This document shows, one piece after another, positions 454-24,050 of a stretch of 32,608 bases of DNA. Both the position numbers and the translations under genes were made by a program. The DNA is from a virus (taxonomy: Duplodnaviria > Heunggongvirae > Uroviricota > Caudoviricetes). The notes under the pieces were generated by a model. The model made no database searches and was not told where the DNA came from. It worked only from the letters and a program-made list of their open reading frames with translations. The stretch is from the IMG/VR virus record IMGVR_UViG_2667527588_000004; one strand, written 5' to 3'. Numbering within the stretch: the stretch's first letter is position 1; the number at the start of each line of letters is the position of its first letter.

Positions 454-3400
454 TACCGATATGCTCCACTTAACCGACCACCATCACGGGCCTGCTGTTG
501 CATAAAGTCCGCTGCCGCTTTTTTCCCGAGGTCATAAACCACCTTCAGGGCAGCCGGACCTATCTGCCCGTTCGTGCCATCGTTATTGATCTCGATGTTG
601 TACTGCGGGGCAAACATCGCCATACCTGAACCACCAATATCCGCCACAACCCCCAGCTTACCGTCAGCACCACGACGCAGTGGCAGAATGGCTTCAGGTC
701 CCGCTTCCCCCATCACACCCGCGCCTTTTGCAAAAGCAAAAAACGTCGGACGGTTAACCACCGTGCCACTGTAACGACTCAAATCAGCAGACTGATAAAT
801 CCCCCCATTGGCATTCAGGGAAAGGCTGCTGAGATCAAATCTCAGTACACTGCCAATCCCTTTTATCGATTTCATCATGGTTGCCTGCGCCAGGATTTTC
901 GCCATATCTGACAGCACAGAAGAGGTGAAGGATTTGAAATTGAATTTGCCGGTAGTGACAAAAGTTGCCAGGCCATTTCCCATGTTGCTGAAGGCTGACG
1001 AGAACACCTGTTCTGCTGTTCCTGCCGTATTATCTGCATCCACGGTAAAATCCTGAAATGCACGCAGGACTCCGTTTTTCCAGTTACCCTGCACAACTTC
1101 AAGCTGTTGCCAGTAACGGCGATTCTCATTCAGTTGTCGGTTCAGGCTCTCCGTCAGCGCCTGCTCGGCCTTTCTGTAGTCATCCGTGTTATATGTTCCT
1201 TTCTGCTCACTATCCCGCCTCAACTGCTCCAGCTGTTGCTGGTATTTCTGGCGAAGACTCAGTTGTACCTGATATCGCTGCCGCTGCTGATCACCCATAC
1301 CCACCGTGGCGATATCCAGGTCATGTTGCTGACGCTGAGCGCGCTCTTCTTCAGCCAGTTGACTGGTCAGCTGAATTGTTTTTTTCTTCAGCTCGTTGAG
1401 TGCCGTCTGTTTCTGAAGCTCCTGCTGTTTTACATCCAGCAGCGTCAGTGCCTGAATCAGTTCATCTTTACGGGCCAGCACACTCTTTTCATCTGCCGTC
1501 AGTTTTTTCCCGTCCAGGTCGCTGATGCGCTGCTGCAGAGCCAGAAGCTGTTTATGCGCTTCTGTCATCCTTTCCGTGGCAATGCCTGCTGACTGTCTGG
1601 CAGCAGCAATCTGTCCTTCCACCTGTGCCTGTTGCTGACTGTACTGCAGCAATAACCGGGTGGCCTCATCATTACGGGGGTCGCGTGTTTTTTTCTTACC
1701 GGATGCCAGGGCTTTCTCGTAACGTTCATTTTCACGTTGTATCGCCGCATCCCTGACAGCCTGATCGGCGTACTGCATGGAATTAATACGCGCAATTTCA
1801 CGCTGATGTCGTGCTGCTTCCGTTTCATTCATCCGGTTCAGTGCAGCATTTTCAGCATTACGGCGTTTCTGTTGCTCCTGATAATTCCGCTCTGCCTGCT
1901 CTTTTGCATCCTGCAAATCCTTCTGGCGTTTTTTCTCCTGAAGCTCGTTAAGACGCTGCTGATCGTACTCAACCTGAGAAGATGATGCCGTCCAGGGGAG
2001 TCTTTTCGCCCGCGACACTTTCTCCTGTAAAGCGGAAATCTGTTCATCCAGCGAGTCTTCACGACCAATATTCATGGCCGCATCCCAGAAACGACTCCAT
2101 AAATCAGACAGATACTTCAGCGTACTGCCCAGCGCATTGAGGTTATTATCAATATCCGCAGTACGCCGACCGGTTTCCTCTGCCAGTGCAGACATGGCTA
2201 TCCGTGCCGCATCACTGGACCGCCCCTGTTCCCCAAGGACGCGTATCTGCTCAAGCTGAGTGGCAGTAAGAAAATGCAGCTCATTGTCCAGAGCCTTCGC
2301 GGCATTTACAGGATCATCCTTCAGCCGCTTAAACTGATTTATGGTATCGCTGACCGACTGACCAACCGATCGCTCCATCTGTGCGGCAGCTCTCGCCACC
2401 ATACCGATATCGTTTCCACGAAATGCACCACTCCCCACCACCTGAGCCAGCGCACCGGCTGCAGCATGTTGCGTAATACCATTCCCGGAAATAGCACGAC
2501 TGAGCGTCCACAGCTGCCCGGCAGTGACTCCGGCATAATGCCCCGTCAGCGACAACTGGCGGTTAAATTCTTCCCCCTCCTTCTGACCATCATACCAGGC
2601 TTTACCCAGACCATAGACGGCCGCGGCAATACCGCCAATAACCCCGCCCAGCATCATGCCTTTCGGTGACATCAGTGTGTCTATCCATCCGGCACGGTTA
2701 GCCAGCGTTATCCCGGATCCCCTCAGCGCACCTAAATTGCCGCGAGCCAGTTCACCTATCAGAACGCCTATCTCCTGGCGGGCCGCTGCACTTTTCAGAC
2801 CCAGCGAATGCGTGGCTTTTCCTGCCTGCTCCATTTTGCGGATATACACTTCTGCAGCACTGCTTACCCCCAGCTGGGCAGCCTTAGCACGAAGCAACTC
2901 AGAAGAAGAAAGATTCTGGCGGGTTGCCTGCTCTTTAAGCTGACGGATAAACGCCACTTTCTGTCGGGTAGCCTCTGCCTCAGCCTGCGTAAGAACACCG
3001 GTTTTCGCCGTAACCTCAGAAATCAGCGCCAGATAATCCTGCTGACCAATCCCGCCACTGTTTCTGGCCTGTCGGATCTGCTGCTGAATACGCTGTAATT
3101 CCTGCAGTCCCGCACTGGCCTGTTTCACACTGTCAATCTGACGATAAAACGCGGCAGCCGCTTTATCCTGAGCCTCCGCCAGAGCCATGGCCTGCGCCTG
3201 TTCCTCGCGCATTTTCTGGCTCAGTGCCTCCATACGCTGGCGGGTTTGCTCCACCTCGCGGGCCATGCGTTCATGAGCCTGTGCGCTCTTCTCCACCGTC
3301 TGCGCATGGACGGATGCGGCTGTTGCAGCCGAAGAAGCCGCCTGCATTGTCTGCCGGGCGGCCTGAGTCTGACGCTCCATAAAACGCTGCATACGGGCAG

Positions 3401-19875: not shown

Positions 19876-19907
19876 AAAATAAAAACAAAAACCCGCCGAA
19901 GCGGGTT
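19876..19907 (-). terminator. Rho-independent terminator at the 3' end of the hok mRNA
   Basis: Minus-strand hairpin AACCCGC-TTCG-GCGGGTT followed by TTTTGTTTTTATTTT. Confidence 0.7.
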
Positions 19908-19975
19908 AAGTGCGGGTGCGTTGAGGATGCCTGCCACATCAGAGGTGGCGAGGGATTTCTCCCTCGCCGGGTCTC

Positions 19976-20131
19976 TTACTCCTCAGGTTCGTAAGCTGTG
20001 AAGACAGCGACCTCCGTCTGGCCGGTTCGGATTCGTACCTCGCAGAGGTCTTTCCTCGTTACCAGTGCCGTCACTATGACGGTTAAACAGATGACGATCA
20101 GGGCGATTAACATCGCCTTTTGCTGCTTCAT
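19976..20131 (-). CDS. hok: Hok/Gef family type I toxin (HokD/RelF-like)
   Basis: 51 aa MKQQKAMLIALIVICLTVIVTALVTRKDLCEVRIRTGQTEVAVFTAYEPEE; TM helix plus conserved RK.LCE..IR....EVA.F.AYE core; an in-frame upstream ATG at 20188 gives a 70 aa mok-like frame. Confidence 0.9.
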   Translation of the reverse strand: MKQQKAMLIALIVICLTVIVTALVTRKDLCEVRIRTGQTEVAVFTAYEPEE

Positions 20132-20342
20132 AGCCTGCTTCTCCTTGCCTTTCGGCACGTAAGAGGCTAACCTACATGTGTCTAGCATGAAATTGGCCTC
20201 AGATTAATGTTAAGCGTCTTGCAGGACGCGTAATGTTAACTGGGGCTTTTCTCTATCTGCCGTTGGTGTTCATGCCCGAGGCAGATAGCCTCAAGCACCC
20301 GCAGCCATTCTACTTAACTACCGTTACCTCGCCAATGTGAAA

Positions 20343-20432
20343 TCAGTCAGAAAGGCGATCCATAAGAACAATAGCAAGACAATAAATCGCCATTACAGCC
20401 GTAATAGCCAGCGCACATTTGAGAACCAGCAC
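20343..20432 (-). CDS. Candidate small hydrophobic peptide (29 aa), possible type I toxin-like sORF
   Basis: GTG start preceded by AGGAGG with a 5-nt spacer; translation (M)LVLKCALAITAVMAIYCLAIVLMDRLSD is one predicted TM helix with a charged C-terminus. Confidence 0.3.
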   Translation of the reverse strand: MLVLKCALAITAVMAIYCLAIVLMDRLSD

Positions 20433-20674
20433 CACAACCTCCTGTATTGGACGTACACCGGTCCTGATGAATATGAGGCTGTCTCGTCAGTGATTCAATA
20501 CAACTATTGGGTATAGTTTCTCTGATTTTTTCTGTGGAAATGGGGCTCAACCACTAGTCATTTAATACGCAAAGTCCGATACAAGCTAACCTTCTAGTCC
20601 GCTTTGAGCGAAGAGCGGACATTGCTAACAGCATCCTGTGTGAATCATTACGATCAAATCGATGACTAGATAAG

Positions 20675-20711
20675 TACAAACCGGAAAAGGGGCCTACTGA
20701 CGAAGTAGGCC
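20675..20711 (-). terminator. Terminator-like hairpin after the three-gene operon
   Basis: Minus-strand hairpin GGCCTAC-TTCGTCA-GTAGGCC followed by CCTTTTCCGGTTTG, 18 nt after the gene C stop. Confidence 0.45.
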
Positions 20712-20728
20712 TGAGTTCCTTATATATT

Positions 20729-21385
20729 TCACAAAATTCTGAGAGTTTCTAAGATGGATAAAAGTGTTGGAAGCTGACTCTCTCTCACACGGAATCTACC
20801 CGTCCTAGATAATTCCGTTTCAATTCCGTTAACGAAGAAATGTACGGAATCAAAAACGGCCGAACTATTCATGTATTTATTCTGATAAATTTCTTGGAGA
20901 TTCTTTGAGCTTACTATTTTTGTCTTTGCTAAAGTAAAAGGATCAACAGAGATATTAGATAGAGACATGGATTTTATCTTGATGTCAAAGCCCTCAGAAA
21001 GACCATTTACAATTTTTCTCAGATCAAATTCTACTGGTCTCAAGCCACTATCTTCACCAAATAGTTTTTGCACCATAGTATAAGGCACTTTCATACTTAA
21101 TGGAGGATTAGTGGCATATAGTATGATTTTTTTCCCTTGTCTGACGCCAAAGTCCACATTTAAGTAAGTTGCTATTTCAACCTCTGAACGCTCGCCATTA
21201 GCATATTCTAAGCTTTGCTTGCTAATGCTTCTCATGGTAAATCTTAGTTTAAGCACTTCAGAGTTATTAATGATTTGAAAACCATATCCTTTATCTTCAT
21301 CATAGAGGTTGTCATTTACTTTATGTAATAACTCACTTTTAGTTATATCCTTTTCTGCTTTATAAATTTTTACCTTTATCATCAT
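20729..21385 (-). CDS. Hypothetical protein C of the AT-rich three-gene operon (218 aa), unknown function
   Basis: ATGATG start at 21385 overlaps the gene B stop as ATGA; AGGAGG 4 nt upstream; AT-rich codon usage unlike the flanking phage genes; no motif recognised. Confidence 0.8.
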   Translation of the reverse strand: MMIKVKIYKAEKDITKSELLHKVNDNLYDEDKGYGFQIINNSEVLKLRFTMRSISKQSLEYANGERSEVEIATYLNVDFGVRQGKKIILYATNPPLSMKVPYTMVQKLFGEDSGLRPVEFDLRKIVNGLSEGFDIKIKSMSLSNISVDPFTLAKTKIVSSKNLQEIYQNKYMNSSAVFDSVHFFVNGIETELSRTGRFRVRESQLPTLLSILETLRIL

Positions 21386-22629
21386 CCAGCCTCCTGATTC
21401 AAAGTCTCGCAAGACATAGCTTTCGTTACTGGGTATCGCTTGGTATGCTCTTCGATAATAAAGTCATTAATCAAAAATATTTTATCTTCTAATTGTTTCA
21501 TGACTTGATCAAAGTCTGCGTCACTGAGTTTTTCTCTCTCTGCGGATGCAGAGTTGCTTTCTTTGTATAACGCTCTGAATTTTATATTTTTCCCAAGATA
21601 TTTATCATCGAAACTAAGTTCAAAAGTTATAGTATGATTCTTAACTACTGAGGAAAATGACTTCCATCGAATTAAGCTTCGATAAAACCCATCACTGCAC
21701 AGTTCCTTAATTTGAGGTGCGTTCACTAATGATAGGCCATCATACGCGGCATTGTTAATGTTAAAAGTTAGGTTTTCATCATCGTCAGATGCCATTTCCT
21801 GATTATTAATGTCATCATCATTTTCGTTATCTGTAGAAGGTGAAATCTTGTTTAATAACTCTTGTGTTTCTTCATTATTATTTCCTTCGAGATTATCTCC
21901 ATTAATATCCAGAGATGTTTTTATTCTGCTTACTCTAACCTTTTCAAGACCAGCATATTCGAGTCCTGTTTTTTTATAATTTCCATCAAAATCATAAAGA
22001 TGAACAGCAAAAATATTCCTAAGATCTGTATCGACGATACTTGATAAATCTATTTCGTTGACAACTATGTTGTTACAAACTGTTGATGAATATGTATCAA
22101 TTATTTGCTTGAGAATTTCTGAAATGCGTGGCGTATAGTTATATCTTACTGAAACATATCCTTTTTTTACTATAAAAACTATACTCCCACTGTACAATTT
22201 TTTCTGCTGAAACTTACCCCTTCTAAAATCAAACTCAGTATAATCAATAGATATATGATAGGTTTGCAAGCCTGAGTAATGATCAATTTTCTCATGCCCT
22301 AGCAACTTGGGTCTATTTTCTTTCACTTTGTTTACAACGTCATAGAGTTTCTCTATATCAAATTCTTCATATATACGTTTTACTGAGAAGACGTCTTGGC
22401 TGGGTTTGGTTGCCAGTTTATCTTGTACTTCTCTGATGTGATTATATGAAAATGGCAGGTCTGATAATTTTTCTATCAATACCTCTTTTGATAAGTTAGA
22501 TGGGAAAATTATCCCTCTATTGAAGGCGATTTTCCTTAATGTAACATCTGTGATTTTTGCACTGTTAGAGTGGAGGGCGGTATAAATGTCACTTTCGTTT
22601 GAAAACAACGTAGCTTGATATTTATTCAT
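21382..22629 (-). CDS. Hypothetical protein B of the AT-rich three-gene operon (415 aa), unknown function
   Basis: ATG at 22629 with AAGGAG spanning the gene A stop; contains an Asn/Asp/Glu-rich low-complexity linker (NNNEETQELL...DNENDDDINNQEMASDDDEN); no Walker A or other motif recognised. Confidence 0.8.
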   Translation of the reverse strand: MNKYQATLFSNESDIYTALHSNSAKITDVTLRKIAFNRGIIFPSNLSKEVLIEKLSDLPFSYNHIREVQDKLATKPSQDVFSVKRIYEEFDIEKLYDVVNKVKENRPKLLGHEKIDHYSGLQTYHISIDYTEFDFRRGKFQQKKLYSGSIVFIVKKGYVSVRYNYTPRISEILKQIIDTYSSTVCNNIVVNEIDLSSIVDTDLRNIFAVHLYDFDGNYKKTGLEYAGLEKVRVSRIKTSLDINGDNLEGNNNEETQELLNKISPSTDNENDDDINNQEMASDDDENLTFNINNAAYDGLSLVNAPQIKELCSDGFYRSLIRWKSFSSVVKNHTITFELSFDDKYLGKNIKFRALYKESNSASAEREKLSDADFDQVMKQLEDKIFLINDFIIEEHTKRYPVTKAMSCETLNQEAG

Positions 22630-22639
22630 GTCATACTCC

Positions 22640-23731
22640 TTATGAAAAGTGACATTTTCTATTCACCTGCTTGCTGGCAACCTGGTACTCAAATATAGAT
22701 AGCTTTTGATTAACAAAAGGAATGGATACTATTTTTTCCTTTAACGTTTCTATATGAGATTGAGTGAAAGAATATATTCCTATGTAATCATTAATGGCGG
22801 ATTGCAAATGAATGCTTGAGTGTGATGAGAACGGAGTTATAACAAATATTTTGTCAAATTGATTGAGTAATTGATAGTTAAATATATACTCTAAAAGAAA
22901 TATAAAGTGGTTACTGGAATCAACCTCTTCCTTCCAGAATATATTCAATATTTTATTTCTTATTCTATCGCCACCATCATTTCTAATATATTCGTGTTCA
23001 TATGAGTAAAAAATCATCCCAGATGTTATCATTTCAATTGTGGCTGGAAGAATTTTCCCTTTCGTTGCTATTTTATTATGTTTGTCAGGGTAAAAATATG
23101 TACAGTTCTCTATCTCAGGAATTTTTTGCCATAACATATTTGTTTCTTGTGTTACTTTGTCAGTAATTCCTCTTCTAGTCTCGATGTGTTCTGTAACATC
23201 TAGTAAAAATCTGATCATAGTTGGGTCAAAAACGGCAATCACAGAGTTCTCTGGAAAATCATAACTTGCTGTGGCTGCTCCATTTAATTTCTCAATTAAA
23301 TCAGAGTCATATTTATTGTCATGATTATATATAAAAAGTAGGCCGTTAACTTGATATTTCTCATTTGTGCTGTCAACAAATAGACGCCGCCACTCAGGAC
23401 TTCTTGGCGCGCAAGCTACCTGTTGTGATAAACTTCGTACAGTGTTCAATATTGATTTTGTACCGTCAAGCGTGCTGGCACAATAAGATTTTAAATCTGT
23501 TTGTATATACTGAGTTATATCTGAATAAGGATCTTTATATTTGAAGACTACATCCGTAGGATGAGTTTTTTTTGGGTTTTCAGATAAAAGTTGTTTAGCG
23601 TTTAGATGAGATCTCAAACAACAGTCCCAACTTATATCCGTTGTATTTTGGGTTTTCCAGCCTAACTCATCAAAAATTCTACTGGAAATGATACCTGCAA
23701 TCTCATCAATATTCTTAGTTTCGCCGCCCAC
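22640..23731 (-). CDS. Hypothetical protein A of the AT-rich three-gene operon (363 aa), unknown function
   Basis: GTG start at 23731 with GGAGG 4 nt upstream; first gene of a translationally coupled A-B-C operon; no recognisable catalytic motif. Confidence 0.8.
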   Translation of the reverse strand: MGGETKNIDEIAGIISSRIFDELGWKTQNTTDISWDCCLRSHLNAKQLLSENPKKTHPTDVVFKYKDPYSDITQYIQTDLKSYCASTLDGTKSILNTVRSLSQQVACAPRSPEWRRLFVDSTNEKYQVNGLLFIYNHDNKYDSDLIEKLNGAATASYDFPENSVIAVFDPTMIRFLLDVTEHIETRRGITDKVTQETNMLWQKIPEIENCTYFYPDKHNKIATKGKILPATIEMITSGMIFYSYEHEYIRNDGGDRIRNKILNIFWKEEVDSSNHFIFLLEYIFNYQLLNQFDKIFVITPFSSHSSIHLQSAINDYIGIYSFTQSHIETLKEKIVSIPFVNQKLSIFEYQVASKQVNRKCHFS

Positions 23732-24050
23732 ACTTCCTCCATAGTTCGTTGTTTTATCTAGTGAAGATCTGATTCATGGTTTTCCAAGCCCATGCGCAAA
23801 ACAATTAATCAAGTAAGAATAATCTTAATCAATTTAATCTTTTTTATTTGAATCATCAAGAGCCCCATTACTGATAGGCATCAGTTGGTGGTATCTCTGC
23901 TCAAGCTTCAGTAAAATCTGGTTTGCTACTTCCGCTCCTGGCACAAAGCGGACAACCACGCCAGATCTACCCTGTGCCATGAAAAATGAGAATGTCAATT
24001 CACTCCTGAACTAATGCTTTTTAATCTAGTAACGTCTAAAATACCTAACA

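What the first reader, a model, noticed from the sequence alone, without database searches (positions are those of the whole stretch)
20343..20432. Unannotated 29-aa hydrophobic sORF with a strong ribosome binding site upstream of the hok locus
On the minus strand AGGAGG-ttgtg-GTG opens a 29-codon frame encoding (M)LVLKCALAITAVMAIYCLAIVLMDRLSD: one predicted TM helix with a charged tail, the architecture of type I toxins and small membrane modulators. The 67-aa ORF in the six-frame track overlaps it in another frame and looks like Cys/Gly-rich noise, so the short frame is the more plausible gene.
Basis: inference. Interest (0 to 1): 0.45.

Follow-up and report, generated by a model that had tools for sequence, protein, structure and literature searches.

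The report
Small prophage membrane-protein gene beside hok
The 29-codon frame is very probably a real, overlooked gene for a tiny single-pass membrane protein that sits just upstream of the hok/sok toxin locus in many E. coli and Shigella prophages; a distant relative is already known to be translated, and what the protein does is unknown.

Summary
On the minus strand, AGGAGG (20443-20438), 5 nt and GTG (20432) open a 29-codon frame ending at TGA (20345-20343), 7 nt before the -35 of the hok promoter.

It is very probably a real gene:
- The frame is open in all 49 full-length copies of a hok-anchored sample.
- In a sample anchored on the ORF's 3' half, the unconstrained 5' half is intact in 117 of 118 copies.
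- dN/dS is 0.22-0.40 (p about 1e-5 to 1e-4). The overlapping 67-aa frame is neutral (about 1.1).
- GGAGG, the 5-nt spacer and the start codon are kept in all 24 distinct upstream contexts.
- A sigma-70-like promoter (TTGAAT-N17-CATATT) sits at a fixed distance in 21 of 24 contexts, with unrelated spacers.

A 50%-identical 34-aa relative (RefSeq WP_001278450.1) occupies the same place upstream of hokD in O157:H7. It is the published RIBOseq-supported gene XECs145.

RefSeq does not annotate the 29-aa form, although about a third of complete E. coli genomes and Shigella pINV plasmids carry it.

It fits no known type I toxin family. I found no sign of an antisense RNA and no structured leader. The function is unknown. 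My best guess is a small inner-membrane accessory protein that travels as a cassette with hok/sok.

The parts
20343..20432 (-). sORF coding sequence: 29 codons plus TGA, product (M)LVLKCALAITAVMAIYCLAIVLMDRLSD. Predicted membrane helix at about residues 6-23, tail MDRLSD.
   Evidence: Frame open in 49/49 and 117/118 relatives. dN/dS 0.40 and 0.22.
20438..20443 (-). Shine-Dalgarno sequence AGGAGG, 5 nt upstream of the GTG start.
   Evidence: GGAGG (GGAG in one group) with a 5-6 nt spacer in all 24 distinct upstream contexts. All AGGAGG-plus-start sites in the window lie on the coding strand.
20470..20498 (-). Putative sigma-70 promoter of the sORF: -35 TTGAAT (20498-20493), 17-nt spacer, -10 CATATT (20475-20470). 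Inferred transcription start near 20463.
   Evidence: TTGNNN-N17-CATATT lies 36-37 nt from the start codon in 21 of 24 distinct contexts, with at least 5 unrelated spacers. It scores 8 of 12, below the 9-of-12 cut-off of the scan. The start site itself is inferred.
20502..20518 (-). Inverted repeat AACTAT-N5-ATAGTT, ending 3 nt upstream of the -35. A possible regulator binding site.
   Evidence: Read from the sequence. Conserved in Qin-type contexts and degenerate in pINV. Function not tested.
20445..20626 (-). Conserved block upstream of the sORF. It begins with the hairpin GTCCGCT...AGCGGAC (20620-20597) and marks the right-hand boundary of the variable cargo slot.
   Evidence: Homology among the window, mEp460, G12, Evi and Tritos starts here, while the cargo upstream differs in each.
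20307..20335 (-). hok promoter: -35 TTGGCG, 17 nt, -10 TAGAAT. The -35 starts 7 nt after the sORF stop codon.
   Evidence: The hok mRNA 5' end near 20299 is inferred from my recollection of the plasmid R1 hok mRNA 5' sequence.
20126..20300 (-). hok mRNA leader and sok antisense region.
   Evidence: Rfam RF01794 sok, 115.3 bits, E 1.2e-26.
19976..20188 (-). mok/hok reading frame. Hok (51 aa) is encoded at 20131-19979 and matches RefSeq HokD.
19882..19907 (-). Intrinsic terminator of hok (AACCCGCTTCGGCGGGTT followed by a T-run). It is the first credible intrinsic terminator downstream of the sORF promoter.
   Evidence: The only other terminator-like site called between the sORF promoter and this one is a weak 3-GC stem inside the sORF coding sequence.

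Best explanation
This is a genuine, translated gene for a 29-residue single-pass inner-membrane protein. It belongs to a family restricted to Escherichia and Shigella, whose 34-aa branch is RefSeq WP_001278450.1 (the published small gene XECs145).

In this Qin-like lambdoid prophage the gene has its own sigma-70-type promoter, a short unstructured leader and a strong Shine-Dalgarno sequence. It is therefore probably made in the lysogen. No credible terminator lies before the hok terminator, so its transcript should run on through the hok promoter into mok/hok. The sORF and hok/sok thus form a compact cassette at the right-hand edge of a variable cargo slot that here holds a candidate defence system.

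Shown here: the ORF, the translation signals, purifying selection on the protein, and the synteny. Shown by others: translation of the homologue.

Inferred: promoter activity, the transcription start, read-through into hok, and membrane insertion.

Guessed: the activity. Like other proteins under 50 aa with a single membrane helix, it most likely acts inside the membrane by binding a partner through its conserved helix (IYCL) and tail (LMDRLSD). Because it moves together with hok, the Hok module is the first candidate partner. A host membrane protein is the alternative.
For: - **Open frame.** The frame is open in 49/49 full-length copies of a hok-anchored sample; the one indel is an in-frame 3-nt deletion. 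In a sample anchored on the ORF's 3' half, the unconstrained 5' half is intact in 117/118 copies.
- **Purifying selection.** Along a minimum spanning tree of 18 alleles, Sd is 33.5 and Nd 38.5, giving omega 0.40 (p = 9e-5). The other sense frames give 0.73 and 1.11. The antisense 59-aa ORF is interrupted by stops in 4-6 alleles. The unbiased N-terminal half of the second sample gives omega 0.22 (p = 1.3e-5), with about 1 in the other frames.
- **Distant relatives keep the frame.** The pINV copy is 78% identical in DNA and has an ATG start. The 34-aa branch is 50% identical in protein, with many synonymous codon changes.
- **Translation signals.** GGAGG, a 5-nt spacer and the start codon are present in 24/24 contexts. 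TTGNNN-N17-CATATT sits at a fixed distance in 21/24 contexts, with unrelated spacers.
- **Homologue is translated.** XECs145 in O157:H7 Sakai has RIBOseq RPKM 346, ribosome coverage value (RCV) 4.35 and coverage 0.99 in LB, and is predicted to be an inner-membrane protein with one helix (PMC5597208, S2 and S8 tables).
- **Hydrophobicity.** The best 18-residue window scores 2.62, at residues 6-23.
- **Synteny with hok.** hok lies downstream in 116/116 assessable loci of the 34-aa branch and in 104/114 loci of the 29-aa branch. This holds in two different prophage contexts: after DUF977 plus cargo, and after Ea22/DUF551.
- **Prevalence.** 1,881 of 5,426 complete E. coli genomes carry at least 80% of the region.
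Against: - There is no direct expression or localisation data for this 29-aa allele. The RIBOseq evidence is for a relative that is 50% identical, sits in a multi-copy prophage region, and was called by the authors with a longer upstream start.
- The promoter scores only 8 of 12 and was not called by the consensus scan.
- dN/dS is moderate, and most amino-acid changes are A/V/I/T swaps. Any hydrophobic frame would tolerate those.
- The gene is dispensable for hok/sok. Cargo replacement truncates it in O104:H4, O45:H2 and TUM13064 while hokD stays intact. About a third of sampled hok loci have no small hydrophobic ORF upstream.
- Conversely, 10 loci and the pINV plasmids keep the sORF without hok. 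A functional tie to Hok is therefore not required in either direction.
Confidence: 0.7

Rival explanations
1. The sORF is itself a membrane-damaging type I-like toxin, or a second toxin of the hok/sok module, kept silent by an RNA not yet seen.
For: It is a short hydrophobic peptide with a charged tail. It lies next to a bona fide type I system and is probably co-transcribed with it. Prophage type I modules with two small toxins on one transcript are known (yonT/yoyJ/SR6 of SPbeta; from my own knowledge). In B-A-hok loci such as L030, a hairpin followed by a T-run faces the antisense direction upstream of the sORF.
Against: No known toxin family matches at E up to 10. There is no Rfam hit and no antisense promoter-like site in the window. 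The leader is about 30 nt without conserved structure, and the Shine-Dalgarno sequence is strong. The homologue is well translated in growing cells (RCV 4.35). The tail is net acidic rather than basic. The antisense-facing terminator is absent from the window's context.
Confidence: 0.12
2. The peptide is a protein-level partner of Hok. It would act either as an antagonist that protects the lysogen or the phage's own lytic cycle from Hok, or as an enhancer. The prophage hok/sok locus would then be a three-part cassette.
For: Adjacency to hok is retained in two branches that have diverged to 50% protein identity. It is retained across different intervening sequence (44 nt, or 80 nt with a palindrome) and in different prophage regions. 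An unrelated 27-aa hydrophobic ORF (MTWPEAF...) occupies the same spot upstream of hokW in Stx phages. Both proteins would sit in the inner membrane.
Against: The evidence is purely positional, and 44-80 nt leaves little room for recombination to separate the two genes. hok loci without the sORF are common, as are truncated sORFs next to an intact hokD. The sORF persists without hok on pINV and in 10 viral contigs. Plasmid hok/sok loci match only the hok part of the region.
Confidence: 0.2
3. The frame is incidental. The DNA is conserved as the upstream regulatory region of hok, or as a homology arm for cargo exchange, or the ORF is a cis-acting leader whose peptide sequence does not matter.
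For: The ORF stops 7 nt before the hok -35. The block is the constant right flank of a highly variable slot. PGAP never calls the ORF. The region does not fold into a significant RNA structure (z = -1.3).
Against: There is a synonymous excess in this frame only. The frame, the start codon and the Shine-Dalgarno sequence are kept at 78% DNA identity (pINV) and at about 60% DNA identity (my rough reading of the two sequences) in the 34-aa branch. The single indel is in frame. The homologue shows ribosome occupancy. A neutral region of this length with about 72 substitutions should have picked up stop codons; I estimate about 3, and none is seen.
Confidence: 0.08

Closest known systems
WP_001278450.1 / XECs145: a 34-aa hypothetical protein of E. 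coli O157:H7 prophages (Huecker et al. 2017, PMC5597208)
   Same: A homologous helix and tail: ALA[IV]xAVxx[IV]YCLxxxLMDRLxx, 50% identity over 28 residues. Both lie immediately upstream of the hokD promoter on the same strand. Both have a strong Shine-Dalgarno sequence. XECs145 is predicted to be an inner-membrane protein with one helix.
   Different: - The window protein lacks the acidic N-terminal extension MSDDISLAMEG and starts with GTG.
- It stops 7 nt before the hok -35, whereas the 34-aa form is about 80 nt from the hok 5' end, with a 22-nt palindrome in between.
- It has its own promoter, whereas the 34-aa form follows a 27-aa ORF in an Ea22/DUF551 operon.
- RefSeq annotates the 34-aa form but not the 29-aa form.
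Type I toxins of enterobacteria (Hok/Gef, TisB, Ldr, Ibs, ShoB, DinQ, ZorO)
   Same: A peptide under 60 aa with one hydrophobic helix and a short polar tail. It is carried on a prophage and lies beside hok/sok.
   Different: No sequence match to any of these families. No antisense RNA signal. A short unstructured leader with an exposed strong Shine-Dalgarno sequence. The homologue is translated in normal growth.
Small single-pass membrane regulators of E. coli and Salmonella (MgrB, AcrZ, MgtS, MgtR, CydX; from my own knowledge)
   Same: Similar size, a single helix, conservation concentrated in the helix and the residues next to the membrane, and expression in growing cells.
   Different: No homology to any of them. 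No partner is known. It is encoded by a prophage and restricted to Escherichia and Shigella (one search found it in only E. albertii and E. ruysiae among species representatives, plus two MAG contigs).
The 27-aa ORF MTWPEAFTTVGIAMAVALVVYSICRWG upstream of hokW in Stx and other lambdoid phages
   Same: The same position relative to the hok promoter, a similar size and hydrophobicity, and a strong Shine-Dalgarno sequence. It occurs in tandem with the sORF family in some prophages, in the order 27-aa ORF, sORF, hok.
   Different: No detectable sequence relationship. Its ATG overlaps the stop codon of the preceding DUF551/Ea22-like gene (ATGA), so it has no promoter of its own. It is absent from this window.

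Membership tests
Type I toxin-antitoxin toxin | Small hydrophobic peptide with one membrane helix | tested here: met
   29 aa, GRAVY 1.74, best 18-residue window 2.62 at residues 6-23.
Type I toxin-antitoxin toxin | A cis- or trans-encoded antisense RNA antitoxin overlapping or flanking the toxin mRNA | tested here: inconclusive
   No Rfam match between 20300 and 20620 at E up to 1. No promoter-like or terminator-like site on the plus strand over the sORF. These scans are weak, so an unknown sRNA cannot be excluded.
Type I toxin-antitoxin toxin | Translation held off by a long structured 5' UTR or a sequestered Shine-Dalgarno sequence | tested here: not met
   The inferred leader is about 30 nt. 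The consensus fold of 10 diverse leaders is -2.3 kcal/mol, with one covarying pair. AGGAGG lies at optimal spacing. The homologue has RCV 4.35 in LB.
Type I toxin-antitoxin toxin | Sequence membership in a described toxin family (Hok/Gef PF01848, Ldr, Ibs, TisB, ShoB and others) | tested here: not met
   No such family at E up to 10 in Pfam, NCBIfam or PHROGs for three alleles. Only chance-level hits to ATP synthase subunit c and CoxIIa.
Type I toxin-antitoxin toxin | Growth arrest or membrane damage on expression | not testable with these tools
   Needs inducible expression.
WP_001278450.1 / XECs145 small-protein family | Sequence homology over the helix and tail | tested here: met
   tblastn of the 34-aa protein against the window hits 20429-20346 with 50% identity over 28 aa, E 9e-7. 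Alignment A2.
WP_001278450.1 / XECs145 small-protein family | Position directly upstream of a hokD-type hok/sok locus, on the same strand | tested here: met
   In the window, the stop codon lies 7 nt before the hok -35. hok is downstream in 116/116 loci of the 34-aa branch and 104/114 loci of the 29-aa branch.
WP_001278450.1 / XECs145 small-protein family | Translated in vivo | not testable with these tools
   RIBOseq exists only for the Sakai homologue. This allele has not been measured.
Cis-acting leader peptide / upstream ORF | Position and length conserved but peptide sequence free to vary | tested here: not met
   The peptide is under purifying selection: omega 0.22-0.40 in this frame only.

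The most novel reading that the evidence does not exclude
Prophage hok/sok loci are really three-part cassettes. A tiny inner-membrane protein is encoded immediately upstream: this family, or the unrelated 27-aa MTWPEAF protein in Stx phages. It would act on Hok at the protein level, either as an immunity factor or a co-toxin. That would be the first protein partner described for a type I toxin-antitoxin system.
Probability: 0.15. Interest if true: 0.65.

Novelty: new member of a known kind. Interest (0 to 1): 0.37.

Why it matters
About a third of complete E. coli genomes, and essentially all Shigella and EIEC invasion plasmids sampled, carry a conserved and probably expressed membrane-protein gene that RefSeq leaves out. 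Pangenome, transcriptome and proteome analyses therefore miss it.

Its constant pairing with hok/sok at the edge of a prophage cargo slot that here holds a candidate defence system gives a cheap, testable hypothesis about how phage-borne Hok is used or restrained.

If it proves to be just one more small membrane protein of unknown role, the practical gain is limited to an annotation fix and a defined family.

Tried and rejected
- The search for homologous proteins rejected the 29-aa query because the minimum is 40 aa.
- I used degenerate DNA patterns instead.
- **Representative-protein search and structure prediction not run.** Only the 30-aa window sequence would have been accepted. It could recover only near-identical proteins, or return a trivial helix.
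- **Species representatives.** The genome-contig scan found the core motif only in E. albertii, E. ruysiae and two MAG contigs. This gave no leads outside Escherichia and Shigella.
- **Literature.** Full-text searches for the peptides of all three small ORFs found nothing. The retapamulin profiling preprint that includes BL21 holds no supplement as text. Searches on hokD with small proteins and prophages gave nothing relevant.
- **Structured RNA rejected.** The region folds no better than shuffled sequence (z = -1.3) and the leaders share no structure.
- **67-aa ORF rejected.** Its dN/dS is 1.1.
- **Antisense 59-aa ORF rejected.** It has stop codons in 4-6 alleles.
- **Terminator-like stem inside the coding sequence (20408-20389).** I treated it as a chance match. 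It has 3 GC pairs and its arms change with amino-acid substitutions.
- **3' remnant of the DUF977 gene rejected.** In BL21 the DUF977 gene does read into this region, but in a different frame and through a deletion fusion.

Full report
**Where we are**

The window is a Qin-like lambdoid prophage of E. coli. The region around the finding is 100% identical to strain 200177. On the minus strand the order is:
- replication genes and a DUF977 gene;
- three cargo genes;
- a conserved non-annotated block of about 430 nt;
- hokD, rem, a hypothetical gene, DUF968, rusA and the Q antiterminator.

Rfam finds sok at 20126-20300 with 115 bits. Hok is encoded at 20131-19979. The hok promoter is TTGGCG-17-TAGAAT at 20335-20307.

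**The observation**

The sequence is exactly as described. AGGAGG (20443-20438), TTGTG and GTG (20432) open 29 codons, (M)LVLKCALAITAVMAIYCLAIVLMDRLSD, ending at TGA (20345-20343). The stop lies 7 nt before the hok -35.

An ORF of this size is not remarkable in itself. The ribosome binding site is. AGGAGG followed by 4-8 nt and a start codon occurs at six sites in the 32.6-kb window, all on the coding strand. The other five open ORFs of 218-699 codons or run off the window end. The identical RefSeq region has no feature here. None of the 60 RefSeq hits listed has one either.

**Is it a gene?**

I collected relatives in three ways:
- annotated E. coli genomes and phages;
- IMG/VR contigs anchored on the hok mRNA 5' end, a choice that is blind to the sORF;
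- IMG/VR contigs anchored on the 3' half of the sORF, which leaves the 5' half unconstrained.

The results:
- In the hok-anchored set, 49 loci carry the full region and all 49 keep the frame. The only indel is an in-frame 3-nt deletion.
- In the sORF-anchored set, 117 of 118 copies have an intact 5' half.
- Counting substitutions along a minimum spanning tree of 18 alleles gives dN/dS 0.40 in this frame (p = 9e-5). The other two sense frames give 0.73 and 1.11. The 1.11 frame is the 67-aa ORF.
- The unbiased 5' half of the second sample gives 0.22 (p = 1.3e-5) in this frame and about 1 in the other frames.
- The antisense 59-aa ORF is broken by stops in 4-6 alleles.
- The copy on Shigella-type pINV plasmids is 78% identical in DNA, has an ATG start and an intact frame, MLVLKGTLAIAAVMTIYCLIVVLMERFSD. 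Its protein is identical in 134 of 139 plasmid records across four Shigella species and EIEC.

**A divergent branch, and published translation evidence**

Upstream of other prophage hok loci lies a 34-aa ORF, MSDDISLAMEGALAVIAVVGVYCLVVFLMDRLGN. It is 50% identical to the window protein over the helix and tail, and many shared residues are encoded by different synonymous codons. At least 120 IMG/VR contigs and 674 of 5,426 E. coli genomes carry it.

RefSeq annotates it as hypothetical protein WP_001278450.1 in O157:H7 EC4115. Huecker et al. 2017 (PMC5597208) list it, with a longer upstream start, as novel gene XECs145 of strain Sakai. In LB its transcript RPKM is 79, ribosome-footprint RPKM 346, ribosome coverage value 4.35 and footprint coverage 0.99. 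It is predicted to be an inner-membrane protein with one helix.

The family is therefore translated in uninduced lysogens. For the 29-aa allele itself this is inference by homology.

**Expression signals**

Across 24 distinct upstream contexts, GGAGG (GGAG in one group) lies 5-6 nt from the conserved GTG or ATG in every case. The codon before it, which ORF listing takes as the start, is not conserved.

In 21 of the 24 contexts, TTGNNN-N17-CATATT sits 36-37 nt upstream of the start codon. At least five mutually unrelated spacer sequences occur. This is the pattern expected of a working sigma-70 promoter. In the window it is TTGAAT at 20498-20493 and CATATT at 20475-20470. It scores 8 of 12 and fell below the cut-off of the consensus scan.

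The inferred leader of about 30 nt has no conserved fold (-2.3 kcal/mol), and the whole region folds no better than shuffled sequence.

Downstream, the first credible intrinsic terminator on this strand is the hok terminator at 19907-19890. A transcript from the sORF promoter should therefore read through the hok promoter into mok/hok. The transcription start and the read-through are both inferred.

**Relation to hok**

- hok follows the 34-aa branch in 116 of 116 assessable loci.
- hok follows the 29-aa branch in 104 of 114 assessable loci.
- The pair occurs in two different prophage settings. One is after DUF977 plus variable cargo, as in the window. The other is after Ea22-like and DUF551 genes, where a second, unrelated 27-aa hydrophobic ORF (MTWPEAFTTVGIAMAVALVVYSICRWG) precedes it.
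- In Stx phages that 27-aa ORF alone sits directly upstream of hokW.

Against a strict dependence:
- Cargo replacement cuts into the sORF in O104:H4, O45:H2 and TUM13064 while hokD stays intact.
- About a third of sampled hok loci have no hydrophobic ORF upstream.
- Ten viral contigs and the pINV plasmids keep the sORF and its promoter without hok.

The pairing is real, but it may reflect nothing more than the 44-80 nt that separate the two genes.

**What it is not**

- No Pfam, NCBIfam or PHROG family matches, including the type I toxin families.
- No Rfam family and no antisense promoter or terminator lies over the sORF.
- The leader is short and open.
- The homologue is translated in normal growth.

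The type I toxin reading is therefore not supported, though toxicity was not and cannot be tested here.

**Best explanation**

This is a real gene for a small single-pass inner-membrane protein. It is expressed from its own promoter, probably co-transcribed with hok, and belongs to a family restricted to Escherichia and Shigella that already has one annotated, RIBOseq-supported member. I put the probability that it is translated at about 0.85.

Its activity is unknown. My working guess is that it acts in the membrane through its conserved helix and tail, with the neighbouring Hok module as the first candidate partner (about 0.2) and a host membrane protein as the alternative. Being a toxin in its own right is less likely (about 0.12).

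**Novelty**

The family is known only as 'hypothetical protein' and as one line in a supplementary table. The 29-aa branch is missing from RefSeq despite its prevalence: at least 80% of the region is present in 1,881 of 5,426 complete genomes. Full-text searches of the held library for the peptide sequences, and for hokD or hok/sok together with small or small-membrane proteins and prophages, returned nothing relevant.

This is a new member of a known kind, and of modest interest unless the link to Hok proves functional.

Noticed in passing
window 20729-23731 (minus strand): The three cargo genes just upstream (363, 415 and 218 aa) have no Pfam domain but match three consecutive PADLOC models: Hp1, Hp2 and Hp3 (PDLC03004-03006; E 5e-41, 1e-10 and 4e-11). 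They are a candidate three-gene anti-phage system.
   Followed up: partly
window about 20626-24050, compared with loci L002, L005-L007 and L009-L013: The slot between the DUF977 gene and the conserved sORF block holds different cargo in each genome: a RelA/SpoT-domain protein, SIR2, QueH, an alpha/beta hydrolase, a SEC-C-domain protein, an acetyltransferase with a regulator, or a large gene on the opposite strand. From my own knowledge of K-12, relBE sits directly upstream of hokD there. The slot looks like a prophage defence or moron hotspot whose right edge is the hairpin at 20620-20597.
   Followed up: partly
Loci L022, L030 and L035 (IMG/VR), Stx phages such as 933W; not in the window: A second unannotated small ORF, MTWPEAFTTVGIAMAVALVVYSICRWG (27 aa). 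It has a strong Shine-Dalgarno sequence, and its ATG overlaps the stop codon of the preceding DUF551/Ea22-like gene (ATGA). It lies directly upstream of the hokW promoter and is found in 93 phage records. RefSeq does not call it in EC4115.
   Followed up: partly
L008 (pINV of E. coli RMDEC364) 1543-1632, and Shigella plasmids: On invasion plasmids the sORF, the hok promoter and about 70 nt of degenerate hok leader survive about 290 nt upstream of icsP, but hok itself is gone. The hok promoter remnant points toward icsP.
   Followed up: partly
L003 (E. coli BL21) 2704-3063: In BL21 a deletion fuses the DUF977 gene to this region. Its reading frame runs across the sORF's Shine-Dalgarno sequence and first 13 codons in another frame, and the sORF promoter is lost. 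The sORF itself stays intact.
   Followed up: partly
L021, L032, L040 and L253, between the 34-aa ORF and the hok promoter: A perfect 22-nt palindrome, CGATATGGGAATTCCCATATCG, follows the 34-aa ORF. The 34-aa ORF plus palindrome is bracketed by two similar copies of TAAAAACG(G)TT(T)GC(G)GG, as if inserted between the 27-aa ORF and the hok promoter.
   Followed up: no
L030, L087, L069 and L117, between the 27-aa ORF and the sORF: A GC-rich hairpin followed by a T-run on the strand opposite to the sORF (CCCCGCA...TGCGGGGCGTTTTTT). This terminator faces antisense to the sORF. It is not present in the window's context.
   Followed up: no
window 20502-20518 (minus strand): An inverted repeat, AACTAT-N5-ATAGTT, ends 3 nt upstream of the sORF -35. 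It is conserved in Qin-type contexts and is a possible operator.
   Followed up: no
window 19886-19972 (minus strand): Weak, sub-threshold Rfam matches to isrK (25.7 bits against a gathering score of 50) and rsmX over the hok 3' end and terminator. They are probably just the shared terminator hairpin.
   Followed up: no
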